Origin: an uncultured Elusimicrobia bacterium
Lineage (GTDB): Bacteria; Elusimicrobiota; Elusimicrobia; Elusimicrobiales; UBA9959
Direction of reading: 5' to 3'
DNA: 64,000 bases
Assembly: GCA_903867985.1 (NCBI GenBank)
Contig: CAIPTO010000082.1
Location: 7,580-71,579, forward strand
Shown: positions 35,886-58,809 of the stretch, one piece after another
Position numbering within the stretch: position 1 is the stretch's first letter
Layout: every line of letters starts with the position of its first letter
Position numbers and translations under genes: made by a program
The notes under the pieces: model-generated
Seen by the model: the letters and a program-made list of their open reading frames with translations, nothing else
The model's database searches: none
Told to the model about the DNA's origin: nothing

Positions 35886-35927
35886 GGCTTACGGCTTATA
35901 GCATACGGCTTACGGCGTATGGCAATG
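35886..35927. repeat. Heptamer array (family A, right arm only)
   Basis: GGCTTAC GGCTTAT AGCATAC GGCTTAC GGCGTAT GGCAATG. Confidence 0.85.
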
Positions 35928-35937
35928 GTTTACAACT

Positions 35938-36360
35938 ATGTCCTTTAAAGTCGAGAGTAACGACGACAATTTGGTTACCGGTATAAATGTCACGCCCCTG
36001 GTGGACGTCTGCCTGGTGTTGGTCATAATATTTATGGTTACAGCCCCGCTACTGTCGGAGCCGGTTTTTAAGGTGAACCTGCCGCAGGCCCGTACCCAGG
36101 AGGGGGAAGAGAAGGAAAAAATAGTCGTATCTCTCGCTCAGGAAGCCAAATACGCCGTAAATGAAAAGGCGTTCACCGTGAAGGACGAATTTTATAAAGC
36201 GCTGGAACGCTCTATCCGGGAAAGCGGCCTTAAGCTTGTGATCATAAAGGCCGACCAAAACGCCGGTTATGGTCTGCTGACGGACGTTATGCAGCGCGCT
36301 AAAGAAGCCGGGGCGTCCAGCATTACTATAGCCACGGAGCAGACTAAGAAGAAAAAATAA
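35938..36360 (+). CDS. exbD: Second ExbD/TolR family protein
   Basis: INVTPLVDVCLVLVIIFMVTAP, VNLPQA, IIKAD. Confidence 0.9.
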   Translation: MSFKVESNDDNLVTGINVTPLVDVCLVLVIIFMVTAPLLSEPVFKVNLPQARTQEGEEKEKIVVSLAQEAKYAVNEKAFTVKDEFYKALERSIRESGLKLVIIKADQNAGYGLLTDVMQRAKEAGASSITIATEQTKKKK

Positions 36361-36376
36361 CCGGCGGTTATTTTTT
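36352..36376. terminator. Possible bidirectional intrinsic terminator
   Basis: AAAAAATAACC-GGC-GGTTATTTTTT. Confidence 0.5.
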
Positions 36377-36395
36377 AGAGGCAAGTGATAACAAC

Positions 36396-36514
36396 TAGTG
36401 CGTAGTGGTTAGTGAATAGTGAATAGTGAATAGTGAATAGTGAATAGTGAATAGTGACTTACCACTTACCACTTACCACTTACCACTTATCACTTATCAC
36501 TTATCACTTATCAC
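36396..36514. repeat. Abutting inverted heptamer arrays (family B)
   Basis: TAGTGCG TAGTGGT (TAGTGAA)x6 TAGTGAC, then (TTACCAC)x4 (TTATCAC)x4. Confidence 0.95.
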
Positions 36515-36538
36515 TTAACCTTATTACCCTGTTTAACT

Positions 36539-37630
36539 ATGTATTCTCATTCCGATAAAACGCTCTTTTACTCTGCGATCGGAGCCGTTTTATTTCATGG
36601 TCTGTTCTTTTTTTTCTACATTAATTTCGTTCTGCTTGGTCCGCAAACCAGAAATATAGTCATAAACAACGTCGATCTGTTGCTCCAGGAAAAGGAGGCC
36701 CGTGTTCCCAAGGCGCCCGGCAATAAAACCCTGGATTTCTTAAAGCTGGCCCTGCCCAAGATCCCTAAGATCGAGATGACCACGGTGCCCAAACTGCCGG
36801 AGATAAATATCAAGGCGCCGGAAGCCCGCAAAAAGAACTTCGACCTGCCGCAAAAACTGCTGGAACGCTCGGGCCGTGTGCAGGCGCAGGAGCGGCTTGA
36901 GATGGATACGGCTAAACGGGCCGCGGCTGCGATGAACGCTGACCTCGGGATCAAGGCTGAACGCGCTACGGCGGCCCTGGCGCCCAAAATTGAGCTTGAG
37001 GAAGTAGGCATGAAGAAAGCGCCTACCCTCCCTGAGAATCTCCAGTTTGACGAGAACGCCCGTTCCTTCACGCCGCAAACCATGCAGGAACTTAATATCG
37101 CGGTGGAACGGGCCAAGAAATCATCCGCCCTGCCCCAGGGGCTTTCCGAAAGGCAGGGCGAGGTAAGCGCTATACGCGAGAGCGCCCGCATTACCCCGGC
37201 TATGCCTGAACGTCTGGCGGAAGCCATAAGCGCGCCCGCCGAAAGCCTTACGCAGGGGCTCAGGGCAAAACCCGTAATATTGGCCGCGAGTCTGGGCGGG
37301 CCTAAAAACGCCTCCATGAAGCAGGCTGAAGAAACGAAGAAAGTAGAGATAGAGGGGCCGATTTCAAAACGGAAAGTGCTTAAGTATTATGTGCCGTCTT
37401 TCCCGTCCTGGGCGCGCGAGCGCGGTTTGCTGGAAGCTTCGGTGTCCATAAAGTTTTATGTTAACAATTCTGGCCGGGTTCTGAATGGCGCTTCGGTGGA
37501 AAAGACTTCCGGCTACGGCGCTTTGGACCGGAGCGCTATTGACGCGATAAAAAAATGGCAGTTTGAGCCCATTAGCGGCGCGGAATCCCGTCAGTGGGGT
37601 ATAATAACGTTCAGGTTCGTGTCGGAATAA
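36539..37630 (+). CDS. TonB-family energy transducer (long linker, TonB_C)
   Basis: TM with S...A...H; C-terminal P.FP.WA...G...V.IKF.V...G.V....VEKTSGY.ALD..A..A.KKW.FEP. Confidence 0.85.
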   Translation: MYSHSDKTLFYSAIGAVLFHGLFFFFYINFVLLGPQTRNIVINNVDLLLQEKEARVPKAPGNKTLDFLKLALPKIPKIEMTTVPKLPEINIKAPEARKKNFDLPQKLLERSGRVQAQERLEMDTAKRAAAAMNADLGIKAERATAALAPKIELEEVGMKKAPTLPENLQFDENARSFTPQTMQELNIAVERAKKSSALPQGLSERQGEVSAIRESARITPAMPERLAEAISAPAESLTQGLRAKPVILAASLGGPKNASMKQAEETKKVEIEGPISKRKVLKYYVPSFPSWARERGLLEASVSIKFYVNNSGRVLNGASVEKTSGYGALDRSAIDAIKKWQFEPISGAESRQWGIITFRFVSE

Positions 37631-37700
37631 GAGATATAGGGCCGGGACGCCGTGGGGCATACCCGGAAAAAGTCGTGAGTCGGAAAAATAGGAGCAGTTT

Positions 37701-38675
37701 ATGAAACAAAATATTCGCGGTAAAGCTTTAATTTCAGTTTTATTTTCATCGGTCATGCTTACGGCCTACGGCTTATGGCCCGCGGCCTTGGGCGCTCAAC
37801 CCCTGACTGAGGAGGCAACTTCGTATAACGAAGTTCCCCAGGAAATCGTGATCAAGTCGGAAAGCGAAGACAAGATCCGGACCACCAAGCCGCCGCTGAA
37901 GATCAAGACGGATGACTTGGAGAGCATCAGGGAATCCCTCGAGCCGGACAAAGATCTTTTTCTGTACGGCGAGTTCGCGAGCGTTTCCCAGGATTATCCG
38001 GAAAAGTTGTTTTCGACCAGAGTGATACAGCCCTGGCGGGCCGGGTTCAGCGATAAAACCGTTATAGCTTTTTATCCGCTGCGCAAGTTTTCAGAGGCTT
38101 TTAACAGGAATTCATTTGACGGTAATTCCAAAGAGATCCAATGGACGCTTTCGGTCACCGACGAGGAGGGCAAGATCTTTCACAAATACGCCGGGACAGG
38201 CGTGCCGCCGGAATCTATATTCTGGACCGGCGAGAACGATCAGCGGGAATGGCTTAAAGCCGGGCATAATTACGCTCCGGTTTACGTCTTCGTGGACGAG
38301 ATGGGCGCGCTTAAGACCATTGTCGGAGATATTATAAAGTTTACCGCGATAGTATTCCAGAAAGACAGCAACCTTAACATAAGTCTGGATTCAGTCTCCG
38401 TATTCGGGCCTACCAAATCCATGAAGACAGTGGATAAGGTTCTGGGTGAAGCGCTGCTTACCGCCACATGCGACCTTATTAAGCGGCGCTATTATAATGT
38501 TCCGGTCAAGGTCAACGTTTACGCCCAGACCAAGGACCTGGCCGAACAACAGGCCGACCAAGTAAGCAATTTTCTTAAAAAAGAGCTTATGACCGGAGCA
38601 AATCTCATAACCTATGAAGGTTTTGACGAAAGTTTCGCCCAGCAGCGGATCGACGTGATTTTGATGAATAAGTGA
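37701..38675 (+). CDS. Exported hypothetical protein (FlgD-like segment, degenerate OmpA-like C-terminus)
   Basis: Signal peptide; WTLSVTD..GKI...Y.G.G.PP..I.WTG; ends QQRIDVIL. Confidence 0.6.
   Translation: MKQNIRGKALISVLFSSVMLTAYGLWPAALGAQPLTEEATSYNEVPQEIVIKSESEDKIRTTKPPLKIKTDDLESIRESLEPDKDLFLYGEFASVSQDYPEKLFSTRVIQPWRAGFSDKTVIAFYPLRKFSEAFNRNSFDGNSKEIQWTLSVTDEEGKIFHKYAGTGVPPESIFWTGENDQREWLKAGHNYAPVYVFVDEMGALKTIVGDIIKFTAIVFQKDSNLNISLDSVSVFGPTKSMKTVDKVLGEALLTATCDLIKRRYYNVPVKVNVYAQTKDLAEQQADQVSNFLKKELMTGANLITYEGFDESFAQQRIDVILMNK
37757..37791. repeat. Family A heptamer array inside a signal-peptide coding region
   Basis: GCTTACG GCCTACG GCTTATG GCCCGCG GCCTTGG encoding LTAYGLWPAAL. Confidence 0.7.
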
Positions 38676-38684
38676 TATCAGGGG

Positions 38685-38757
38685 AAGTGATAAGTGGTAA
38701 GTGATAAGTGGTAAGTGATAAGTAATAAGACTTACAACTTAATCCTTACAACTTACT
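38685..38757. repeat. Inverted heptamer arrays (family B)
   Basis: AAGTGAT AAGTGGT AAGTGAT AAGTGGT AAGTGAT AAGTAAT AAG then ACTTACA ACTTAAT CCTTACA ACTTACT. Confidence 0.9.
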
Positions 38758-38782
38758 CCTGAGTCTTAATTTCGGAGACAAT

Positions 38783-46554: not shown

Positions 46555-48024
46555 ATGAAGGCGATCATACTTGCCGGCGGCTCGGGTACGCGGCTTTGGC
46601 CTGTTTCGCGGTACGGCCTGCCCAAGCAGTTTATAAAACTGAACGGCGGTAAATCCCTGCTTTGCCAGACCGTGGAACGCCTGGCGGCCGTAGTGCCGCT
46701 GAAAGATATTTTTGTTATCACCAACGAGGATTATCACTTTCACGTGCAGGAAGACCTTAAATCAGTGTCGCCGGATATACAGGATAATATCATTCTTGAA
46801 CCGGTGGGGCGCAACACGGCCCCGGCTATAGCGCTGGTGATGAAGTACTGCCTGGAGAAGCTTAAATGCGCTAAGAGCGAGGTTGTTTTTATCTGCCCTT
46901 CCGATCATATCCTGGAGCCGGTGGAAAAGTTCGCCCGCTACGCCAAACAGGCCGAAGTCGCCGCCAAGGCCGGCAGCATTGTTACCTTCGGCATAAAGCC
47001 CAGCCGCCCTGAAACAGGCTACGGCTATATTAAAGCGGGGACCAGAATAGTCACATGTCAAAAGTCGCAGGTTAAAAATAAAAAATCCGCCGATTCCGTA
47101 AAGCCTGCAGCCTGTGAAAGTCTTTTCGCTAACGTTTATAAGGTCGCGCACTTTACCGAAAAGCCTGATCGTGCAATAGCCGAGAAATATCTTAAAGACG
47201 GTAATTATTATTGGAATCTGGGCATCTTCGCGTTTACGATCGGCGCCATGCTGGCGGAATTTAAAGCTTACGCTCCGGAAATAAGCCGCAAAATGGGGCA
47301 GACTTTCGCAAAAATGACGGCGGATTTTAAGGATATCCCGCCCATTTCCATAGATTACGCCGTGATGGAGAAGTCTAAAAATACCGCGGTCCTGCCGATA
47401 GACATTCTCTGGTCAGACGTCGGCTCATGGGATTCTTTACCCGAAGTTATCAAGCCGGATTTCCAGGGTAATGTGAAAATCGGCGACGTGATAGCCGTCG
47501 ATACGGTAAAAACCATAGTGATGGGGGAAAACCGGCTTATTTCAACGATAGGGCTTAAAGACCTGATAATTGTGGACACCCCCGACGCTCTGCTTATAGC
47601 CCGCCGCGGCCAGGCCCAGCGCGTTAAAGAAATAGTGGACATGCTTAAAGAGCGCAAGCGTAAAGAAGTTGAGGAGCATACCACCACTTACCGGCATTGG
47701 GGTTCTTATACCGTTCTGGAAGAAGGCCCCCGCTACAAGATAAAACGCATAGTGGTTAAACCAGGCCAGAAGCTCAGCCACCAGGTGCACTACCACCGCA
47801 GCGAGCACTGGGTTATAGTTAAGGGCACGGCAAAAGCCACTATAGGCAAAAAGTCATTTATAGTGCATGAGAACGAAAGCACCTATGTGCCAAAATCCAC
47901 CGGGCACCGCGTGGGGAACCCCGGCAAAGTTCCGCTTGAAATAATAGAGGTTCAGAACGGCGAATATGTCGGCGAAGACGATATCGTGCGGCTGGATGAC
48001 GCTTACGAGCGGCGGCGACATTAG
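46555..48024 (+). CDS. manC: Mannose-1-phosphate guanylyltransferase/mannose-6-phosphate isomerase
   Basis: [13 protein letters not shown]...PKQF, EPVGRNTAPA, ETGYGYI, SIDYAVME, WSDVGSW, cupin H.HRSEHW. Confidence 0.95.
   Translation: MKAIILAGGSGTRLWPVSRYGLPKQFIKLNGGKSLLCQTVERLAAVVPLKDIFVITNEDYHFHVQEDLKSVSPDIQDNIILEPVGRNTAPAIALVMKYCLEKLKCAKSEVVFICPSDHILEPVEKFARYAKQAEVAAKAGSIVTFGIKPSRPETGYGYIKAGTRIVTCQKSQVKNKKSADSVKPAACESLFANVYKVAHFTEKPDRAIAEKYLKDGNYYWNLGIFAFTIGAMLAEFKAYAPEISRKMGQTFAKMTADFKDIPPISIDYAVMEKSKNTAVLPIDILWSDVGSWDSLPEVIKPDFQGNVKIGDVIAVDTVKTIVMGENRLISTIGLKDLIIVDTPDALLIARRGQAQRVKEIVDMLKERKRKEVEEHTTTYRHWGSYTVLEEGPRYKIKRIVVKPGQKLSHQVHYHRSEHWVIVKGTAKATIGKKSFIVHENESTYVPKSTGHRVGNPGKVPLEIIEVQNGEYVGEDDIVRLDDAYERRRH
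47050..47117. repeat. Degenerate heptamer inverted array inside manC
   Basis: GTCACAT GTCAAAA GTCGCAG GTTAAAA ... GCCTGCA GCCTGTG, within an unusually long loop between GYGYIK and F.EKP. Confidence 0.55.
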
Positions 48025-48041
48025 AGGCCGCCTGAACATGT

Positions 48042-49202
48042 ATGAAAAATAAAAACCTTCCATCCTCATCTTTTTGGCGTGACAAAAAGGTATTCCTCAC
48101 CGGACATACCGGCTTTAAAGGCGCCTGGCTCTCCATCTGGCTGGACGCTATGGGAGCAGAAGTCACAGGTTACGCTCTTAAGCCTCCCACAAAACCGAGC
48201 CTTTTCGAACTGTGCCGCGTTGACCGCTCCGTTAAGTCACTTATAGCCGATATCCGTGACGCAGGGCGCCTGCAAAAAGCTGTCCTGGCGGCAAGGCCGG
48301 AAATAGTAATTCACATGGCCGCCCAGCCCATAGTCCGGCAATCCTATAAAGATCCGCGCGAAACTTATGAAACCAATGTCATGGGTACGGTAAACCTGCT
48401 TGAGGCCGTCCGTAATTGCGGTACTGTGCGGGCCGTAGTCAATGTCACCACCGATAAATGCTACGAAAACAAGGAGCATCTCCGCGGGTACAAAGAGGAT
48501 GAACCCATGGGCGGTTATGATCCGTACTCAAGCAGCAAGGCCTGTTCAGAACTCGTCACTGCGGCCTATCGCAACTCCTTCTTTAATCCCAAATCTTATC
48601 GTGCCTCCTGCCGATCCTCCAGTCCTCTAATCCTCCAGTCCTCTAATCCTCCAGTCCTCCAATGCGCCCACCATGTGGCCCTGGCTTCAGCCCGGGCGGG
48701 AAATGTTATCGGTGGCGGGGATTGGGCGGCCGACCGCCTTATTCCGGACATAATACGCGCGGCTTTAAAGGGGGACAAAGTCCTTATCCGCAATCCCAGG
48801 GCAATACGCCCCTGGCAGCATGTTTTGGAACCGCTCAGCGGCTATCTGGTTCTGGCTGAAAAACTTTATAAGCGGGGCCCCGGTTACGCCCAGGCCTGGA
48901 ATTTCGGTCCCGACGCGGGCGACGCCAAAGACGTGGAATGGATAGCGGAACGGATGTTCTCCGCCTGGCCCGAAGCCCCCGGCTACGCTCTGGATAAAGG
49001 CCTTCACCCCCATGAAGCGCATTACCTGAAACTTGACTCCGCCAAAGCCCGCCGCGAACTCGGCTGGGCCCCGCGCTGGCGCATAGGCCAGGCCATAGAT
49101 AAAATAATAGAATGGACCCTGGCGTATCAAAACAGTCTGGATATGCGGGATGTGACCCTTGGACAAATAAAGGAATATATTGCCATAAGCCATAGGCTTT
49201 AG
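48042..49202 (+). CDS. rfbG: CDP-glucose 4,6-dehydratase (carries in-frame repeat insertion)
   Basis: TGHTGFKGAWL, HMAAQP.VR.SY, TTDKCYEN, DPYSSSK, ARAGNVIGGGDW, RPWQHVLEPL. Confidence 0.96.
   Translation: MKNKNLPSSSFWRDKKVFLTGHTGFKGAWLSIWLDAMGAEVTGYALKPPTKPSLFELCRVDRSVKSLIADIRDAGRLQKAVLAARPEIVIHMAAQPIVRQSYKDPRETYETNVMGTVNLLEAVRNCGTVRAVVNVTTDKCYENKEHLRGYKEDEPMGGYDPYSSSKACSELVTAAYRNSFFNPKSYRASCRSSSPLILQSSNPPVLQCAHHVALASARAGNVIGGGDWAADRLIPDIIRAALKGDKVLIRNPRAIRPWQHVLEPLSGYLVLAEKLYKRGPGYAQAWNFGPDAGDAKDVEWIAERMFSAWPEAPGYALDKGLHPHEAHYLKLDSAKARRELGWAPRWRIGQAIDKIIEWTLAYQNSLDMRDVTLGQIKEYIAISHRL
48612..48663. repeat. Octamer array YARTCCTC x6 (family D, right arm) in frame within rfbG
   Basis: CGATCCTC CAGTCCTC TAATCCTC CAGTCCTC TAATCCTC CAGTCCTC CAAT. 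Confidence 0.95.
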
Positions 49203-49667
49203 GCCGTAAGCTATAAGCCGTAGGCAGATTGGAAGAGGGAGCGAAATGGAAAAGTGGAAGAGTCTTGAGGTTTGGCAACTTGCTAATGATCTGGCGCATA
49301 AGGTTTATTTGGCAACAAAAGATTTTCCTAAAGAAGAGCTATATGGGCTGACATCCCAATTACGCCGGGCTGCTTTGTCAGTTCCTACGAATATAGTGGA
49401 GGGACATTCCAGGAGTGGGGATAAAGAACTTGCACGATTCTTAAATATTTCTTTGGGATCTCTCGGCGAAACAAAGTATCTTCTTTTCTTTTCAAATCAG
49501 TTGCAGTATTTGCCGGAGAAGTCTTTTCTTGAGTTGGATAAGTTAACCCAAGACGTTGGCGTAAAACTTTGGGCGTTCTATAAAGTTGTAAAAGAATAGT
49601 TCTGTTCTGCGTATGGCTAAATCTTATGGCCTAAAGCCTAAAGCCTAAAGCCTAAAGCTTATGGCAA
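49180..49667. mobile_element. Putative cassette: four-helix-bundle gene enclosed by inverted family A heptamer arms
   Basis: Perfect 11-bp terminal inverted repeat TTGCCATAAGC (49180-49190) / GCTTATGGCAA (49657-49667); arms 49182-49228 and 49605-49665; mobility is inferred, no TSD seen. Confidence 0.6.
49246..49599 (+). CDS. Four helix bundle protein (23S rRNA IVP family)
   Basis: L.VWQ.A..L...VY..TK.FPKEELYGLTSQLRRAA.SVP.NI.EG..R......RFL.IS.GSL.E. Confidence 0.93.
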   Translation: MEKWKSLEVWQLANDLAHKVYLATKDFPKEELYGLTSQLRRAALSVPTNIVEGHSRSGDKELARFLNISLGSLGETKYLLFFSNQLQYLPEKSFLELDKLTQDVGVKLWAFYKVVKE

Positions 49668-49689
49668 ACCTAATCGATAAGGCTCTACT

Positions 49690-50433
49690 ATGGAAATAAT
49701 ATTCTTAGGCACCAACGGTTGGTATGATACTAAACTCGGTAACGCCGTCTGCGTACTTCTCAAAACCGAAAAATACGACATCGTCATGGACGCCGGCAAC
49801 GGCATCTATAAGCTGGACCAATATGTGGACGGTTCAAAACCCGTTTATCTTTTTTTAAGCCATTTCCATCTGGATCACATAGTCGGCCTTCACATCCTGA
49901 CAAAGTTTAATTTTAAAAAGGGTATGACCATTTGCGCCGGTAAAGGCGCCAATAAAACGTTAAATTCGATCCTTCGCCGCCCGTTCACCATCCCGCTGAA
50001 AAAATTAAGGACCAAAACCGGCGTTCTGGAGCTGCCGGCGCAGGCCGCGCGAATACCTTTTGACGTCAAATGCCTTCCTCTGGTTCACGCCGATCCTGTG
50101 CTGGGCTACAGATTTAATATAGACGGCAAAATTGTGACTTATTGCACCGATACCGGCTATTGCCCGAATTCATTAAAACTGGCAGCAGGCGCGGACCTGC
50201 TTATAAGCGAATGCGCCCACAGGCCGGGTGAGGAGAATCCCGGCTGGCCTCACATGAACCCGGAAAGCGCTGCCGCTCTGGCCAAAGAAGCCGGGGTGAA
50301 AAAGCTGATCCTTGTCCATTTCGGCGCCGACAGATATCCCGCCATGAAAGACCGGGAAAACGCCCAAAAAATAGCCCGAAAAACCTTCAGAAACACCCGG
50401 GCCGCAGTTGATGGCCTGCGCATGGTGATTTAA
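49690..50433 (+). CDS. MBL-fold metallohydrolase, RNase Z-like
   Basis: IIFLGT, DAGNG, SHFHLDH, H, YCTDT, ADLLISEC, HM, LILVHF. Confidence 0.85.
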   Translation: MEIIFLGTNGWYDTKLGNAVCVLLKTEKYDIVMDAGNGIYKLDQYVDGSKPVYLFLSHFHLDHIVGLHILTKFNFKKGMTICAGKGANKTLNSILRRPFTIPLKKLRTKTGVLELPAQAARIPFDVKCLPLVHADPVLGYRFNIDGKIVTYCTDTGYCPNSLKLAAGADLLISECAHRPGEENPGWPHMNPESAAALAKEAGVKKLILVHFGADRYPAMKDRENAQKIARKTFRNTRAAVDGLRMVI

Positions 50434-50677
50434 CTCCGCTCAGTCCTTTGCTGACTGCAGCAAACTCATTAAAAATGGCATATAGGGGAGCCAGTAAGTT
50501 CGCGAGGTCGCCGAGGGGTGGGTTCCAAAAACCAGGGTCGGGACACACCGTGCCCGCCCTTCCCTTCCTCAGCCTCGCCGCTTACGTAAGTCTCGGCTTC
50601 CGGAGGGTTTTTTCCACCCACCCCTCGGCGCCTGCTCCATTGATTCATATGTGAGGCCTGCGCATGGTGATTTAACT
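50413..50677. mobile_element. Structured non-coding insert flanked by 23-bp direct repeats
   Basis: GGCCTGCGCATGGTGATTTAACT at 50413-50435 and 50655-50677; internal perfect 15-bp stem 50509-50523/50616-50630. Confidence 0.6.
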
Positions 50678-50746
50678 TCGCCAGTCCTGCACTAGCTTTA
50701 AAAATGCAGTCAAATGCAACATTTGCGCCAAGTGGGTCCTTTGGGC

Positions 50747-50778
50747 GGATCCGCCAGTCCTTTGGCCCTCTAATCCTC
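50747..50778. repeat. Degenerate family D octamer right arm
   Basis: GGATCCGC CAGTCCTT TGGCCCTC TAATCCTC. Confidence 0.55.
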
Positions 50779-50796
50779 TCATACAAATTGCTATAA

Positions 50797-50984
50797 TTAA
50801 CCTAAATCCTGCAGTTAAAGATAGATTTCGTTTGGGAAAACCGGGAACATGATTATTCTGCAGGATTTCCCGCACACCGGGCTGAGGGCCCAGCGCTATG
50901 CGCGCCTGGCCCGAAGAGGTGTATGCCTCCCGAATGGGCGCCCGCAATGCGGGCGGAAAGTTGCAGCTGCAACTTTTAGGTTAA
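50797..50984. mobile_element. MITE-like element
   Basis: Terminal inverted repeats TTAACCTAAAtccTGCAG / CTGCAactTTTAGGTTAA; GC-rich internal hairpins; no credible ORF. Confidence 0.65.
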
Positions 50985-51019
50985 CTATATAATAAGCGAT
51001 TTGGAACTGAGGGACTGAA

Positions 51020-52534
51020 ATGGGCCTCAAAACTGCTAAAACCGAAAAAAAACTGCGCAAAGAGATACTTCGTAAGGTTTCGGAGTATCATGGCCTTTTC
51101 CATAAGAAAAAGGACTTTGAGCCAGGCAAGTCTTTTGTCGCTTACGGCGGAAGGGTATATGACGGGAAGGAATTATGCAATCTTGTCGGTTCCGCCCTTG
51201 ATTTCTGGCTTACTTCCGGCCCATATGTTGACGCTTTCGAGAAAAAGTTCGGAGAATTCCTTGGCGTCAGGCATGTTTCCCTCGTAAATTCCGGCTCATC
51301 GGCCAATCTTCTGGCGTTCATGGCCCTCACCTCCCCGAAACTTGGCGAAAGGCGCATAAAGCCCGGTGATGAGGTTATAACCGTCGCCGCCGGCTTTCCT
51401 ACCACGGTTACTCCTATAATCCAGTACGGCGCGGTCCCCGTCTTCGTTGATGTCGAAATTCCGTCCTATAATATCGATTGTTCTCTGCTGGAAAAAGCTC
51501 TTTCAAAAAAGACCAAAGCCGTAATGGTCGCCCACACTTTGGGCAACCCCTTTGACCTGAAAAAGGTCCGCGCTTTTTGCGACAAGCATCGCCTCTGGCT
51601 AATTGAGGATAACTGCGACGCTCTGGGCAGTAGGTACAGAAGAATGGAGGACTGGAAGACTGGAGGACTAGCCAAACCCGCGGATCTTTGCCGCTGCCAA
51701 TCCTCTAATCCTACAACCCTCCAAAAATCTGCTCTCTTGCCAATCCTCCAATCCTCTAATCCTCTAATCTTCCAATACACCGGAACTTTCGGCGATATCG
51801 GTACTTCCAGCTTCTATCCGCCGCATCATATGACCATGGGCGAGGGGGGAGCGGTCTATACTGATAACCCCCAGCTTAAAAGGCTTGTGGATTCTTTCCG
51901 TGACTGGGGCCGCGACTGCTGGTGCCCGTCCGGAAAAGACAACACTTGCGGTAAGAGATTCACCCGGCAGTTCGGCGAGCTTCCTTTGGGCTACGACCAC
52001 AAGTATGTTTACTCTCATTTCGGTTATAATCTCAAGGCCACCGAGATGCAGGCTGCCGTCGGCCTGGCCCAGCTTGAAAAGCTTCCCAAATTCATTGAAG
52101 CCAGAAAAAAGAACTGGCAATACCTGCGCAAAGCCCTTAATTCTTTTTCGGATAAGCTTATCCTGCCCGAACCCGCCGATAATTCCGACCCCAGCTGGTT
52201 CGGCTTCCTGCTGACGGTCAGGGGGAACGCCGGCTTCACCCGCGAAGAGCTGGTCAGCCATCTTGAGGCCAATAAAATACAAACCCGCGTGCTGTTCGCA
52301 GGCAACCTTATAAAGCACCCCTGCTTCGACGAAATGCGCCGCTCCGGCAAAGGCTTCCGCGTCGTAGCCGGCGCTTCTCGCCAGTCCTCCAATCCTCCAA
52401 TCCTCCTGGCCTCATTGCCCGTTACCGACCAGATCATGCGCGACACTTTCTGGATAGGCGTCTATCCCGGCATGACCGTAGAAATGCTGAAGTATGTCTC
52501 GGATACTTTTAAATCTTTTTTTAACCGTTCGTAA
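51020..52534 (+). CDS. rfbH: CDP-4-keto-6-deoxy-D-glucose 3-dehydratase (E1), with two in-frame repeat insertions
   Basis: [60 protein letters not shown]. Confidence 0.95.
51639..51776. repeat. Complete family D hairpin (left arm plus two right arms) in frame within rfbH
   Basis: GAAGAATG GAGGACTG GAAGACTG GAGGACTA ... CAATCCTC TAATCCTA CAACCCTC ... CAATCCTC CAATCCTC TAATCCTC TAATCTTC CAAT. Confidence 0.95.
52382..52413. repeat. Family D right arm in frame within rfbH C-terminus
   Basis: CAGTCCTC CAATCCTC CAATCCTC CTGGCCTC. Confidence 0.9.
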
Positions 52535-52543
52535 AGGATCATT

Positions 52544-53596
52544 ATGAGAACATATATCGCGGGCCACACCGGATTGGTCGGCTCGGCTATTTGCCGGAAA
52601 CTGGCTGCCGGCAAAAAGCATGAGCTGCTGGTAGAAGATCACGATAAGCTGGATTTGAAAAGGCAGAAAGAAACCGAGGACTATTTTAAAAAAAACAAAC
52701 CGGATTGGGTTTTCCTCGCCGCGGCAAGGGTCGGGGGGATACTCGCGAACAGCACCTATAAAGCCGAATTCATCTATGATAATCTGGCCATTGCCCTCAA
52801 TGTTATAGATGCCGCTTATAAGACGGGAGTGAAAAAACTTTTAAACCTCGGTTCTTCGTGCATTTATCCCAAACTCGCCCCCCAGCCGATGAAAGAGGAG
52901 TCGCTGCTTACAAGCGCGCTGGAACCCACCAACGAGGCTTACGCCATCTCGAAAATAGCTGCTTTAAAAATGTGCCGTTATTACAACGAGCAGTACGGCA
53001 CCAACTACATCTCGGCGATGCCCACCAATCTTTACGGACCGCACGATAACTATAATCTGGAAACCGCCCACGTCCTGCCCGCCATGCTCAGGAAATTCCA
53101 TCTCGCTAAGCTCTTAAAGCTTAGGGATTTTTCCGCTCTCTCTAAAGATCTGCAGAAGCGTCCCATAGGCTTCGGTCTCGATAAAAAAGTGGATTTTAAG
53201 GATGAAGGCTCCATTTGCGCCGCTTTGGAGTCCATAGGCGTTACGGCGGACAGCGTTCTTCTTTGGGGCACAGGCGAAGTTTACCGGGAATTTCTGCACG
53301 TCGACGATATGGCGGCCGCGGCCCTGTTCCTTATGGAGAAATGCGATTATTCCGATATCGGCGAGATAATAAATATCGGCACGGGTGAAGATCTGAAATT
53401 AAAGCTGCTGGCGCACATTATAAGAGACGCGGTTGAGTACGACGGCGCCATAAAATACGATACCTTCAAACCCGACGGCACCCCAAGAAAACTTTTAGAT
53501 ATCTCAAGGATAAGGGCGCTGGGCTGGCAGCCCGCGATCCCGTTAAAAGACGGCGTAAAACAAAGCTACGCGTGGTATCTGTCTTCTCACGCGTAA
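52544..53596 (+). CDS. fcl: GDP-L-fucose synthase
   Basis: AGHTGLVGSA, AAARVGGI.AN, LGSSCIYP, EPTNEAYA..K, MPTNLYGP.DN, REFLHVDD, PDGTPRK. Confidence 0.93.
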   Translation: MRTYIAGHTGLVGSAICRKLAAGKKHELLVEDHDKLDLKRQKETEDYFKKNKPDWVFLAAARVGGILANSTYKAEFIYDNLAIALNVIDAAYKTGVKKLLNLGSSCIYPKLAPQPMKEESLLTSALEPTNEAYAISKIAALKMCRYYNEQYGTNYISAMPTNLYGPHDNYNLETAHVLPAMLRKFHLAKLLKLRDFSALSKDLQKRPIGFGLDKKVDFKDEGSICAALESIGVTADSVLLWGTGEVYREFLHVDDMAAAALFLMEKCDYSDIGEIINIGTGEDLKLKLLAHIIRDAVEYDGAIKYDTFKPDGTPRKLLDISRIRALGWQPAIPLKDGVKQSYAWYLSSHA

Positions 53597-57291: not shown

Positions 57292-57534
57292 TTCTGCGTA
57301 TGGCGTAAATCGTAAGCAATTCTGCAAATGGCCTAAATCGTGAAGCGGAAAACGTAAAGCGTAAATAGTAAGAAGTCTTTATTCTGCTTATGGCTTAAAT
57401 CGTAAAGCGTAAAACGTAAATAGTAAAAGATTCTGCAAATGGCCTAAATCGTAAAGCGGAAAACGTAAAGCGTAAATAGTAAAAGATTCTGCGTATGGCA
57501 AACGGCGAATGGCATATGGCAAACGGCTTACGGA
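57292..57534. repeat. Five tandem family A right-arm modules, each starting TTCTGC
   Basis: TTCTGC at 57292, 57320, 57382, 57431, 57487, each followed by heptamers such as AAATGGC CTAAATC GTAAAGC GGAAAAC. Confidence 0.92.
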
Positions 57535-57537
57535 GTG

Positions 57538-57579
57538 TTGATATTTACCTCCAAATATCCTAATATGTACCATATTAGG
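57538..57579 (+). promoter_or_regulatory. Promoter with overlapping palindromic operator-like site
   Basis: TTGATA -17 bp- TAATAT; perfect CCTAATATG-TAC-CATATTAGG at 57559-57579. Confidence 0.55.
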
Positions 57580-57599
57580 TGAATGGGTTCACCCAAAAC

Positions 57600-58736
57600 A
57601 TGCATATTAAGAGAACTATACAGGCGAGTATTGAAAAGAGCCTTTTCAAAAACAAGGTTCTTATACTTTACGGCGCGCGGCAAGTGGGCAAGACCACTTT
57701 GGTCCGGGAGATACTTAAAAAGCATCCGGGGCAGTCAGCGTATTTAAATTGCGATGAACCTGACATTCGTGCCGCTTTGACAGACAAGACTTCTACCGAA
57801 CTTAAAGTTTTTTTTAAGGAAAAAAAGTTTATTGTTCTTGATGAGGCCCAGCAGGTCAAAAACATCGGCCATACGCTTAAAATAATAGCCGACAATCTGC
57901 CGTCCACGCAGATCCTTGCCACCGGATCGTCCTCTTTTGAGCTTTCAGACAAAATAGCCGAGCCTTTAACCGGAAGAAAGAGGGAGTTTCTGCTCTATCC
58001 GTTCTCTTTCCAGGAATTGGCGTCTTTCTATTCGGAAGTTGAAATGGACAGGCTGCTTGAACGCCGTATTATTTATGGCATGTACCCTGAAATAGTAGCC
58101 GGTAAAGAAAACACCGAGATAAACCTTAAAAGCCTTGCGCGCAGCTATTCTTACAAGGATGTTCTTAAATACCAGAATATAAAAAACCCGGATCTGCTGG
58201 AAAAGCTCCTGCAGGCCTTGGCGCTCCAGGTCGGCAATGAGGTGTCTTATAATGAGCTGGCAGCCCTTTTAGGGATAGATAAGAATACCGTGGCGTCCTA
58301 TATTCAGATCCTTGAAAAGGCGTTTATTATTTTCAGAGTGGGGCCGTTCAGCAGGAATTTACGCAACGAACTTAAAAAACTCCGTAAAATTTATTTCTAC
58401 GATACCGGGCTCCGCAACGCTCTTATAAACAATCTTAATCCGCTTGATCTGCGCCAGGATGTGGGGGCTTTGTGGGAAAATTTTGTTATATCCGAAAGAC
58501 GGAAGTTCCTCGCCAATACCGCTCTTGATAGAAAAGGGTATTTCTGGCGGACAGCCCAAAAACAGGAGATCGACTATCTGGAAGAAGGCGGGGGACATTT
58601 GTGGGCGTTTGAAGTAAAATGGAGAAAAGAAAAATTCAGGACCCCGAAAGTATTTTCACAGGCATATCCTGACGCGGAAGTTTCGCTGGTGACCTCAAAA
58701 AATTATAAAGATTTTATAGGCGCGGTCAAAGCGTAA
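57600..58736 (+). CDS. AAA_14 ATPase with DUF4143 (wHTH and PD-(D/E)XK-like C-terminus)
   Basis: GARQVGKT, LDEAQ, TGSSS, LTGRK, KIYFYDTGLRN, GALWEN, YFWR....EID, AFEVKW. Confidence 0.9.
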   Translation: MHIKRTIQASIEKSLFKNKVLILYGARQVGKTTLVREILKKHPGQSAYLNCDEPDIRAALTDKTSTELKVFFKEKKFIVLDEAQQVKNIGHTLKIIADNLPSTQILATGSSSFELSDKIAEPLTGRKREFLLYPFSFQELASFYSEVEMDRLLERRIIYGMYPEIVAGKENTEINLKSLARSYSYKDVLKYQNIKNPDLLEKLLQALALQVGNEVSYNELAALLGIDKNTVASYIQILEKAFIIFRVGPFSRNLRNELKKLRKIYFYDTGLRNALINNLNPLDLRQDVGALWENFVISERRKFLANTALDRKGYFWRTAQKQEIDYLEEGGGHLWAFEVKWRKEKFRTPKVFSQAYPDAEVSLVTSKNYKDFIGAVKA

Positions 58737-58809
58737 ATCGACAATCGGAAAGCGGAAAGCGTGAAACGTAAAGCGGAAAACGTAAAGCGTAAAGCCTAAA
58801 GCCTATGGC
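58726..58809. repeat. Family A heptamer array (12 units); supplies the ATPase stop codon
   Basis: TCAAAGC GTAAATC GACAATC GGAAAGC GGAAAGC GTGAAAC GTAAAGC GGAAAAC GTAAAGC GTAAAGC CTAAAGC CTATGGC. Confidence 0.92.

What the first reader, a model, noticed from the sequence alone, without database searches (positions are those of the whole stretch)
49180..49667. Four-helix-bundle gene sitting in the loop of a heptamer-array hairpin: candidate core of the system
Seen: a 117-aa IVP-family gene with its own RBS, bracketed by complementary arms with a perfect 11-bp terminal inverted repeat, between the normally adjacent rfbG and rfbH. Known: family members were first found in excised 23S rRNA intervening sequences of Leptospira, and the fold is shared with pentameric Avd. 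Inference: an mRNA-embedded intervening-sequence-like unit whose protein may bind periodic repeat RNA or DNA and help process or spread it. No transposase, RT or TSD is seen.
Basis: partly seen in the sequence, partly recalled or inferred. Interest (0 to 1): 0.85.

Follow-up and report, generated by a model that had tools for sequence, protein, structure and literature searches.

The report
Hairpin cassette carrying a four-helix-bundle gene
A small gene of the kind first found inside ribosomal-RNA intervening sequences sits here in a sugar operon between two mirror-image arrays of 7-base repeats, and the same gene-plus-arms layout turns up across many bacterial phyla, which suggests a widespread self-contained genetic element.

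Summary
A 117-aa PF05635/TIGR02436 gene (49246-49599) lies between complementary heptamer arrays (49180-49225, 49625-49667) that end in a perfect 11-nt inverted repeat. The upstream dehydratase gene's stop codon lies inside the left arm.

The layout is not local chance. The genome's only other PF05635 gene has the same layout with another heptamer family. Flank complementarity passed the 95th percentile of mismatched controls in 20 of 28 relatives' copies and 58 of 76 copies from many phyla. Periodicity is 7 or 8 nt and hugs the gene.

- Arm families follow the protein lineage, not the host genome.
- A 75%-identical protein in another genus, at another site, has the same arm family and the same terminal 11-mer.
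- The proteins are under purifying selection (dN/dS 0.1-0.33).
- 74 of 100 cassettes are co-oriented with both neighbours.
- This genome holds dozens of ORF-less hairpins of the same family.

Best reading: an rRNA-IVS-type selfish cassette living in mRNA operons. The published Coxiella IVS has heptamer repeats at its RNase III site.

Not shown: protein binding to the arms, RNA processing, and the way it moves. I found no target-site duplication, no adjacent transposase or reverse transcriptase, and no G·U excess. This is a new variant of a known kind, and its interest is high.

The parts
49180..49225 (+). Left arm: about 6 units of the heptamer GCYNTAR. Its first 11 nt (49180-49190) are the left terminal inverted repeat. 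It contains the stop codon (49200-49202) of the upstream gene.
   Evidence: The left boundary of similarity to the G016 copy falls here.
49226..49245 (+). Spacer with a purine-rich SD-like stretch before the ATG.
   Evidence: The median arm-to-start gap in 60 cassettes is 24.5 nt.
49246..49599 (+). 117-aa four-helix-bundle protein gene (PF05635 / TIGR02436; S23p/IVP family).
   Evidence: Model pLDDT 97.3 with four long helices. TM 0.96 to PDB 2gsc. dN/dS below 0.11 against the G016 homologue.
49605..49617 (+). Post-stop 'head' motif TTCTGCGTATGGC that opens the right arm. It is shared with dozens of ORF-less hairpins in the genome.
49625..49667 (+). Right arm: heptamer array complementary to the left arm. 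Its last 11 nt (49657-49667) are the right terminal inverted repeat.
   Evidence: The right boundary of similarity to the G016 copy falls here.
48042..49202 (+). Its last codons and its stop are supplied by the left arm.
49690..50433 (+). Downstream host gene (MBL-fold hydrolase). It starts 22 nt after the right arm and is the normal neighbour of the dehydratase gene in relatives.

Best explanation
The feature is a compact cassette of about 488 bp, of the same kind as the ORF-bearing intervening sequences of 23S rRNA, but lodged in a protein-coding operon.

Its parts, in order:
- a left arm of degenerate heptamers;
- a short spacer with a ribosome-binding site;
- a gene for a PF05635 four-helix-bundle protein, whose solved relatives are ring-shaped pentamers;
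- a right arm that is the inverted complement of the left.

It sits in sense orientation exactly at the 3' end of the upstream gene and has no promoter of its own that I could see, so it is most likely read from the host operon's transcript.

It belongs to a class found in many phyla. In that class the arms keep their 7- or 8-nt periodicity and their mutual complementarity, while their sequence changes together with the protein lineage. ORF-less hairpin copies of the same arm family can multiply in a genome.

Most likely mechanism:
- Shown: gene plus arms are inherited and moved as one unit.
- Inferred: in RNA the arms pair into a stem of about 40 bp, which RNase III can cut, as published for the rRNA version.
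- Inferred: the pentameric protein recognises the periodic units of its own arms, roughly one unit per protomer, and serves the element's maintenance or spread.

The chemistry of movement is unknown.
For: Anatomy and fold:
- Anatomy.
- Fold: pLDDT 97.3; TM 0.96 to 2gsc, 0.83 to 2rld, 0.78 to Avd 4dwl. 2gsc and 2rld each hold 5 chains.
- Passages seen in PMC4990558 call the Xanthomonas protein a homopentameric toroid.

Generality:
- 2 of 2 PF05635 genes in this genome are bracketed by inverted heptamer arrays, of different families.
- Flank complementarity reached the 95th percentile of mismatched pairs in 20 of 28 copies from relatives.
- It did so in 58 of 76 copies from other phyla, and 34 of 76 reached the 99th percentile.

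Position and period:
- A 7/8-nt periodic window lies within 100 nt upstream in 35 of 103 loci.
- One lies within 100 nt downstream in 33 of 99 loci.
- The next 100 nt out hold 6 and 4 such loci, and bins farther out 0-2.
- Periods 5, 6, 9, 10 and 11 occur in at most 1 locus per bin.

The cassette is a unit:
- The nearest protein relative in another genome and at another site shares arm 6-mers above the 95th percentile in 37 of 112 cassettes. At 70% identity or more the figure is 16 of 21.
- Only 2 of 56 within-genome paralogue pairs do so.
- The G016 homologue (75% identical) lies between unrelated membrane genes. It has the same arm family and the same terminal 11-mer. Similarity ends at the arm tips.
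- In a Gemmatimonadales genome, two similar paralogues share 8-mer arms, while divergent paralogues have other arms.

Constraint:
- dN/dS is 0.1-0.33 in 10 pairs.
- Window against G016: arms are 63% and 77% identical, third codon positions 39%.

Dependence on host transcription:
- Both neighbours are co-oriented in 74 of 100 loci and both opposite in 2.
- No promoter or terminator signal above shuffles.
- The upstream arm is purine-rich on the sense strand in 68 of 75 cassettes, pyrimidine-rich in 5 and tied in 2.

ORF-less relatives:
- The head motif occurs 59 times against 11-25 for scrambled patterns. 35 copies carry the head plus array.
- The GCYNTAR x3 pattern occurs 54 times in G000, 201 in G002, 71 in G016 and 29 in G001. 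It occurs 0-1 times in 35 of 41 relatives. The reversed control gives 0 in all but one genome.
- The Gemmatimonadales 8-mer arm family occurs 141 times in its genome, control 3.

Empty sites in relatives.

RNA feasibility:
- MFE and centroid folds pair the arms.
- RNase III is encoded.
- In the Coxiella IVS, tandem heptamers precede the S23p start and RNase III cuts at the first repeat (passages of PMC4990558).
- DGR Avd, a fold relative, binds a defined RNA element as a pentamer (passages of bioRxiv 10.1101/2023.10.23.563531).
Against: - Arm mismatches give no excess of sense-strand G·U (70) over A·C (76). Complementarity may therefore be made or kept at the DNA level rather than selected in RNA.
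- No RNA data exist for this organism.
- Four metagenome runs showed no contig that skips the cassette, so no excision or empty-site polymorphism was seen.
- No target-site duplication (mean shared word 3.07 vs 3.21 in controls, 55 cassettes).
- No enzyme of known mobility function in the cassette.
- Own-arm against ortholog-arm complementarity only weakly favours concerted evolution (12 vs 5 of 18 non-independent pairs).
- The overall rank correlation of protein identity with arm similarity is weak (0.044; 47 of 500 permutations reach it). The link is clear only above about 60% identity, which plain co-inheritance could explain without any binding specificity.
- Several array families in this genome (for example AGGGTAT, AGTGGAT and the 8-mers) have no cognate PF05635 gene in the 92%-complete assembly.
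- G001 has 29 arrays of this family but no cognate gene was found there.
- ORF-less copies are few in the five Bacteroidota genomes searched (1-10 matches each).
- The window protein is only weakly basic (pI 7.9, net +1; family median pI 9.1).
- The 80 distant loci were the best matches to this clade, not a random sample of PF05635.
Confidence: 0.6

Rival explanations
1. Host regulatory module. The heptamer arrays are cis-acting punctuation of operons, acting on mRNA stability, translation coupling or attenuation as proposed for other intergenic heptamer repeats. The four-helix-bundle protein is their trans-acting regulator and is encoded next to one of its own sites.
For: - Arrays lie in many intergenic spacers of ordinary operons.
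- The proteins are under purifying selection.
- The upstream arm has a strong strand polarity.
- Stop codons in all three frames are modestly enriched upstream (63 of 112 vs 36-38 of 112 in controls).
- PMC4679880 (passages seen) proposes translational regulation for TAACTGA repeats.
Against: - The array family is patchy even within the genus: 0-1 matches in 3 of 6 genus-mates, 29-201 in the others.
- The same cassette with the same termini sits at unrelated sites in different genera.
- Orthologous junctions exist without it.
- Arm families differ among paralogues in one genome.
- There are only 2 protein genes for at least 5 array families here.
Confidence: 0.15
2. Passenger gene. The periodic hairpins are the mobile or self-expanding entity, driven by slippage plus an unidentified host or element enzyme. 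The four-helix-bundle gene is a frequent cargo or a preferred resident of their loops and has no role in them.
For: - ORF-less hairpins far outnumber ORF-bearing ones.
- Arrays persist in G001 without a cognate gene.
- Two array units sit at the G001 junction without the gene.
- No G·U excess and no target-site duplication.
- The protein has no known catalytic motif.
Against: - In this genome only PF05635 genes fill gene-sized loops. The 10 other intervals I examined, mostly the wider inverted pairs, enclose ordinary housekeeping genes.
- The association holds across phyla with wholly different unit sequences.
- Arm family tracks protein lineage.
- The RAYT-like transposase genes of this genome are flanked by other palindromes, not heptamers.
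- ORF-bearing copies are strongly sense-oriented (74 vs 2), whereas ORF-less ones are not (14 vs 8). This points to selection for expression of the protein.
Confidence: 0.17
3. Remnant of a diversity-generating retroelement: an Avd-like accessory gene left behind after loss of its reverse transcriptase and template repeat.
For: Weak matches to bAvd (PF22296, 26 bits, below the cut-off of 40; NF033474, 26.5 bits, below 80). The fold resembles Avd at TM 0.78.
Against: - Both Avd models score below their cut-offs.
- The genome's single RVT_1 match is on another contig.
- The arms are arrays, not a template/variable repeat pair.
- The best structural and sequence relatives are the non-DGR proteins 2gsc and 2rld.
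Confidence: 0.03
4. Coincidence: a small gene that happens to lie between two of the many arrays of an array-rich genome.
For: The genome has 291 merged TRF arrays of period 7/14/21.
Against: - 2 of 2 genes in this genome have the layout.
- 58 of 76 distant copies pass the control threshold.
- The arrays are positioned tightly at the gene.
Confidence: 0.01

Closest known systems
ORF-bearing intervening sequences (IVS) of 23S rRNA (Coxiella, Leptospira)
   Same: - Size: 428-444 nt in Coxiella against 488 nt here.
- Complementary borders that form a long stem.
- A single ORF of the S23p/PF05635 family.
- Tandem heptamers just upstream of the ORF, where RNase III cuts (passages of PMC4990558).
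- Regarded as selfish and horizontally acquired.
   Different: - The IVS lies in helix 45 of 23S rRNA; this one lies between protein-coding genes.
- None of the roughly 100 loci examined was in rRNA. 74 have co-directional ORFs on both sides, and 20 of the others were scanned with Rfam, which found one tRNA only.
- Both arms here are arrays.
- The protein is under purifying selection, whereas the Coxiella ORF is reported as probably not expressed.
- ORF-less copies are dispersed in the genome.
REPIN-RAYT systems (REP hairpin doublets with a flanked single-copy RAYT gene)
   Same: - A single-copy gene flanked by inverted copies of a short repeat.
- Many gene-less hairpin copies in intergenic DNA.
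- The repeat family is matched to the gene lineage.
- Patchy distribution among relatives (PMC3116915, abstract only in a search listing; the rest recalled).
   Different: - The enclosed gene is a four-helix bundle, not an HUH/Y1 transposase.
- The arms are tandem 7/8-mers, not a unique palindrome.
- This genome's two Y1_Tnp-like genes are flanked by different palindromes.
Avd of diversity-generating retroelements
   Same: Same fold (TM 0.78). Pentameric barrel that binds a defined RNA element (passages of bioRxiv 10.1101/2023.10.23.563531).
   Different: No reverse transcriptase partner, no template or variable repeats, and the Avd models score below their cut-offs.
MITEs and their autonomous transposons
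   Same: Terminal inverted repeats. An ORF-bearing form plus many short ORF-less forms.
   Different: No transposase, no target-site duplication, and arms built of periodic units whose sequence differs between lineages.
Intergenic heptanucleotide repeat arrays (cyanobacterial STRR; TAACTGA repeats of Beggiatoaceae, Cyanobacteria and Bacteroidetes)
   Same: Tandem degenerate heptamers in intergenic DNA, often just before start codons. Patchy phylogenetic spread and unknown origin (passages of PMC4679880; STRR recalled).
   Different: Those are described as direct repeats with no associated gene. In the passages found, that paper does not mention the S23/IVS protein family (0 occurrences of 'intervening', 'S23' and 'helix bundle'). 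A link to PF05635 cassettes was not tested here for those organisms.

Membership tests
PF05635 / TIGR02436 (23S rRNA IVS protein, 'four helix bundle protein', S23p) | Match to the family models above the curated cut-offs | tested here: met
   PF05635 120.2 bits against 33.8. TIGR02436 111.1 bits against 24.
PF05635 / TIGR02436 | Four-helix-bundle fold like the solved members | tested here: met
   pLDDT 97.3 with four long helices. TM 0.96 and rmsd 0.9 to 2gsc; TM 0.83 to 2rld.
PF05635 / TIGR02436 | Homopentameric ring | not tested
   Only by relatives: 5 chains in each of 2gsc and 2rld, and 'homopentamer ... toroidal' in passages of PMC4990558.
rRNA intervening sequence (IVS) | Inserted in a helix of a 16S or 23S rRNA gene | tested here: not met
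   It lies between a dehydratase gene and an MBL-fold gene. Rfam finds no rRNA in 48000-52600.
rRNA intervening sequence (IVS) | Bordered by complementary sequences that form a stable stem | tested here: met
rRNA intervening sequence (IVS) | Cut out of the transcript by RNase III without re-ligation | not testable with these tools
   No RNA run holds the stretch. RNase III is encoded in the genome.
Diversity-generating retroelement | Reverse transcriptase plus template and variable repeats next to the Avd gene | tested here: not met
   The only RVT_1 match is on contig C46, while the two genes are on C82 and C48. The Avd models score below their cut-offs.
DNA transposon / MITE | Terminal inverted repeats | tested here: met
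   A perfect 11-nt terminal inverted repeat. The same terminal 11-mer is found on the right arm of the G016 copy.
DNA transposon / MITE | Target-site duplication | tested here: not met
   55 cassettes: mean longest shared word 3.07 against 3.21 in mismatched controls.
DNA transposon / MITE | Element-encoded transposase | tested here: not met
   The only ORF is PF05635. It has no PADLOC match either.
REPIN-RAYT | The flanked gene is a Y1/HUH RAYT transposase | tested here: not met
   The flanked gene is PF05635. The genome's Y1_Tnp-like genes carry other flanking palindromes.

The most novel reading that the evidence does not exclude
PF05635 pentamers are the repeat-recognising factor of a previously unrecognised, transposase-less class of hairpin elements. 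Each protein lineage keeps and spreads its own 7/8-nt periodic arms. The classical ORF-bearing rRNA intervening sequences are the rare copies that landed in rRNA. The ORF-less derivatives account for a good part of the unexplained heptanucleotide repeat arrays in bacterial intergenic DNA.
Probability: 0.3. Interest if true: 0.9.

Novelty: new variant of a known kind. Interest (0 to 1): 0.8.

Why it matters
PF05635/TIGR02436 is a large family with no known function outside its Avd cousins. Passages of PMC11270868 call it 'functionally uncharacterized'. The origin of rRNA intervening sequences and of intergenic heptanucleotide arrays has also been open for decades.

The regular gene-plus-arms layout supplies a concrete candidate ligand for the protein: its own flanking repeat units. 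It also supplies natural specificity pairs, namely different protein clades with different units, sometimes within one genome. Some carriers are cultured and harmless, for example Flavobacterium isolates.

This makes binding, RNA processing and mobility directly testable. If the protein does read periodic repeats, one unit per protomer, it would be a new kind of programmable repeat-binding ring.

Six full-text searches found no description of this general layout. The closest is the Coxiella paper's remark on heptamers inside its IVS. Curators' notes on the family models and papers outside the library could not be checked.

Tried and rejected
- RNA-level selection on the stem: G·U-type against A·C-type arm mismatches were 70 vs 76, and 26 vs 22 by locus. 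No signal.
- Target-site duplication: none.
- Concerted evolution of arms in same-site pairs: own-arm score beat the cross score in 12 pairs, lost in 5 and tied in 1 of 18. The pairs are not independent, so this is weak.
- Global Mantel-type test of protein identity against arm similarity: Spearman 0.044, and 47 of 500 permutations reach it. It was replaced by a nearest-neighbour test. The 'other site' filter there is a 10-mer overlap of outer flanks and may miss old orthologous sites.
- Three-frame stop idea for why periods 7 and 8 are used: only a modest enrichment. Kept as a side remark.
- Pentamer equals five units: the median arm is 32 nt (IQR 27-39.5) and TRF copy numbers range from about 3 to 9. 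This is compatible but not diagnostic.
- Promoter and terminator scan: nothing above shuffles.
- Rfam on 48000-52600: one sub-threshold miRNA match, taken as chance. Rfam on 20 loci without simple ORF contexts: one tRNA and no rRNA.
- PADLOC: no match.
- RAYT as the mobiliser: its genes have other flanking palindromes.
- Other intervals I examined, mostly the wider inverted array pairs (0.6-2.2 kb): the 10 longest ORFs look like ordinary housekeeping genes by reading. Only the DUF4143 ATPase was scanned with Pfam.
- Sequencing runs: no RNA holder listed. Contigs of four DNA runs showed no joint that skips the cassette, and parts without cover say nothing.
- ORF-less arrays are few in five Bacteroidota genomes and at 5 loci in one Planctomycetales genome.
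- Complex prediction was not used, because it allows at most four copies and takes no nucleic acid.
- Supplementary files were not asked for. The strain tables of PMC4990558 and the repeat tables of PMC4679880 might bear on the heptamer claims.
Full report
**What is there.** The window is C82:7580-71579 of a 2.6-Mb, 147-contig genome. Its nearest named relative among fetched loci is an Elusimicrobia MAG. At 49246-49599 lies a 117-aa ORF. It matches PF05635 (E 5.7e-35) and TIGR02436, and matches the Avd models only below their cut-offs. The AlphaFold model (pLDDT 97.3) is a four-helix bundle. It superposes on the Xanthomonas protein 2gsc at TM 0.96, on 2rld at 0.83 and on phage Avd at 0.78.

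The ORF is bracketed by two arrays of degenerate heptamers (unit GCYNTAR and its complement). They are mutually complementary over 43 nt (81%) and end in a perfect 11-nt inverted repeat. The upstream dehydratase gene now ends inside the left arm. An MBL-fold gene starts 22 nt after the right arm. Its statement that the gene separates rfbG from rfbH is not accurate. In three relatives the dehydratase gene abuts the MBL-fold gene, and that is the junction occupied here.

**Not chance, and not local.**
- The genome has only two PF05635 genes. The second sits between the alpha and beta genes of a lysine 5,6-aminomutase (Pfam). It is bracketed in the same way, but by CGKAAAR heptamers.
- Of 190 heptamer arrays of 24 nt or more in the genome, 22 have an inverted partner within 2.5 kb. 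The only two with loops of 355 and 399 nt are these two genes.
- Ten other intervals I examined, mostly the wider inverted pairs, enclose what read as ordinary housekeeping genes.
- In 40 related genomes plus this one, 18 of 41 carry the family. Of 28 copies with both flanks, 20 exceed the 95th percentile of mismatched upstream/downstream pairs and 15 exceed the 99th.
- A scan of one genome per species returned at least 596 relatives. I took the best 80, which come from Planctomycetota, Omnitrophota, Bacteroidota, Chloroflexota, candidate-phyla-radiation lineages, Desulfobacterota, Acidobacteriota, Gemmatimonadota and others. Of the 76 with both flanks, 58 pass the 95th percentile and 34 the 99th.
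- Periodicity is specific in place and period. A strict 7- or 8-nt periodic window lies within 100 nt upstream in 35 of 103 loci and within 100 nt downstream in 33 of 99. The next 100 nt out hold 6 and 4 such loci, and bins farther out 0-2. Periods 5, 6, 9, 10 and 11 occur in at most 1 locus per bin.
- The typical build is: an arm of about 32 nt, about 24 nt to the start codon, the ORF, about 6 nt, then the other arm.

**Gene and arms travel together.** The unit sequences differ widely between loci, including between paralogues in one genome, so the arms are not a host-wide motif. Only 2 of 56 within-genome paralogue pairs share arm 6-mers above the 95th percentile of random pairs.

The arms follow the protein instead. 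For 37 of 112 cassettes, the nearest protein relative in another genome at another site has similar arms (25 above the 99th percentile). The figure rises to 16 of 21 at 70% identity or more.

The clearest case concerns this very cassette:
- In another genus (G016), the closest homologue (75% identical) lies between two unrelated membrane-protein genes.
- It carries the same arm family and the same terminal 11-mer.
- Its DNA similarity to the window begins and ends at the arm tips.
- Between these two copies, third codon positions are 39% identical and synonymous sites are saturated. The arms are 63% and 77% identical. Repeats can inflate such identities, so this figure carries a caveat.

Further cases:
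- An 8-mer family is shared by 64-85%-identical proteins at three different sites in Pirellulales, Sedimentisphaerales and a Gemmatimonadota genome.
- In a Gemmatimonadales genome, two similar paralogues share 8-mer arms, while divergent paralogues have 7-, 8- or 9-mer arms of other sequence.

The global rank correlation is weak. The link is evident only at closer distances. That fits co-inheritance with fast-changing arms and does not by itself prove binding specificity.

**The protein matters and the host's transcript feeds it.**
- dN/dS is 0.1-0.33 in ten pairs.
- In 74 of 100 loci both neighbours run the same way as the gene; in 2 both run opposite.
- The median distance from the upstream stop codon to the start is 61 nt, so the arm and spacer fill the whole gap.
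- No promoter or terminator signal exceeds shuffles.
- The upstream arm is purine-rich on the sense strand in 68 of 75 cassettes, pyrimidine-rich in 5 and tied in 2.
- ORF-less copies in this genome show only a weak orientation bias (14 vs 8). The strong bias of ORF-bearing copies therefore looks like selection for expressing the protein.

**ORF-less relatives.**
- A 13-nt head motif follows the stop codon and opens the right arm. It recurs 59 times in the genome, against 11-25 for scrambled patterns. About 35-48 copies are followed by the same heptamer arrays and preceded by the complementary array across a short palindromic apex.
- The array family is patchy among relatives: 54 matches in this genome, 201, 71, 29, 14 and 13 in five others, and 0-1 in the remaining 35. 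The reversed control gives 0 in all but one genome.
- A Gemmatimonadales genome has 141 matches of its own cassette's 8-mer family, against 3 in the control.
- Five Bacteroidota genomes have few.

**Empty junctions in relatives.**
- One genus-mate has the dehydratase stop codon 1 nt from the MBL start, with no array.
- Another has just two units of this family there.
- A third genus has an 8-mer hairpin at the same junction.
- The aminomutase junction is uninterrupted in two genus-mates.

**Known relatives.** Passages of the Coxiella paper (PMC4990558) describe a 428-nt selfish IVS in helix 45 of 23S rRNA:
- it is bordered by inverted repeats;
- it holds an S23p ORF preceded by three tandem heptamers, with the cut at the first repeat.

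The same passages cite the Xanthomonas protein as a homopentameric toroid. They also recall the old idea that the ORF might serve mobility.

The window's unit is thus the same kind of object in a new place. None of the roughly 100 loci I examined is in rRNA. As RNA, both of this genome's cassettes fold with the arms paired, and RNase III is encoded. In DGRs the fold relative Avd binds a defined RNA element as a pentamer (passages of bioRxiv 10.1101/2023.10.23.563531).

**What speaks against, or is missing.**
- Arm mismatches show no surplus of G·U over A·C (70 vs 76). The complementarity may therefore be produced at the DNA level rather than selected in the sense RNA.
- There is no target-site duplication.
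- There is no adjacent transposase or reverse transcriptase. The one RVT_1 match is on another contig. The genome's RAYT-like genes carry other palindromes.
- No RNA run holds the locus.
- Contigs of four DNA runs confirm the cassette in another study's sample, but none skips it.
- Several array families here have no cognate gene in this 92%-complete assembly.
- Binding of the protein to the repeats is inference only.

**Verdict.** This is an IVS-type hairpin cassette with a PF05635 gene. It is one member of a widespread, apparently undescribed class that lives in operons and can leave many ORF-less hairpins. Six literature searches and targeted reading found only the local Coxiella remark on heptamers.

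Noticed in passing
window 48614-48663; 51639-51669; 51740-51776; 52381-52406: Arrays of 8-nt units lie inside the coding sequences of the dehydratase and DegT-family genes. They are in frame and read as SSNPPILQ-like peptides. Summed contig depth over the first array is 17-40 against 3-9 beside it in two runs. A genus-mate has a 7-mer array at the equivalent spot of the dehydratase gene.
   Followed up: partly
window 50434-51019: A 586-nt non-coding gap follows the MBL-fold gene. The gene's last ~25 nt recur at about 50655-50685. Positions 50808-51015 have summed contig depth of 50-80 against about 4-6 beside them, so this looks like another multi-copy element.
   Followed up: no
window 57292-57527 and 58728-58805: Compound repeats (a 49-56-nt super-unit, each holding the same head motif plus heptamers) precede a DUF4143/AAA_14 ATPase gene (57579..58736), and a heptamer array follows it. 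Here the arrays are direct, not inverted.
   Followed up: partly
window 35886-38760: Heptamer arrays fill successive spacers of an ExbD/TonB-like gene string. At 36410-36517 two near-perfect arrays abut (6.9 and 8.7 copies) and are only partly complementary.
   Followed up: no
G000 C71:3235-3558 and C96:1827-2156 (outside the window): Two Y1_Tnp (RAYT-like) genes are flanked by their own short palindromes, a separate REP-like system in the same genome. Counts of such genes and of PF05635 genes look broadly similar across the relatives by eye, without a test.
   Followed up: partly
L019 (G001:C11) and L018; L021, L006: Some PF05635 frames run without a stop into the next gene. A divergent copy is fused upstream of the signal peptide of a large, probably secreted protein. 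The open frames are 1166-1202 aa in five genomes. Two others run into outer-membrane-like proteins.
   Followed up: partly
L073, L074, L087 (Flavobacterium): The cassette lies directly before a gene that starts MAKDIKF. I take this from memory to be groEL, so the cassette would sit inside a highly expressed chaperonin operon.
   Followed up: no
L003 1370-1443: One relative's cassette follows a tRNA gene rather than a protein gene.
   Followed up: no
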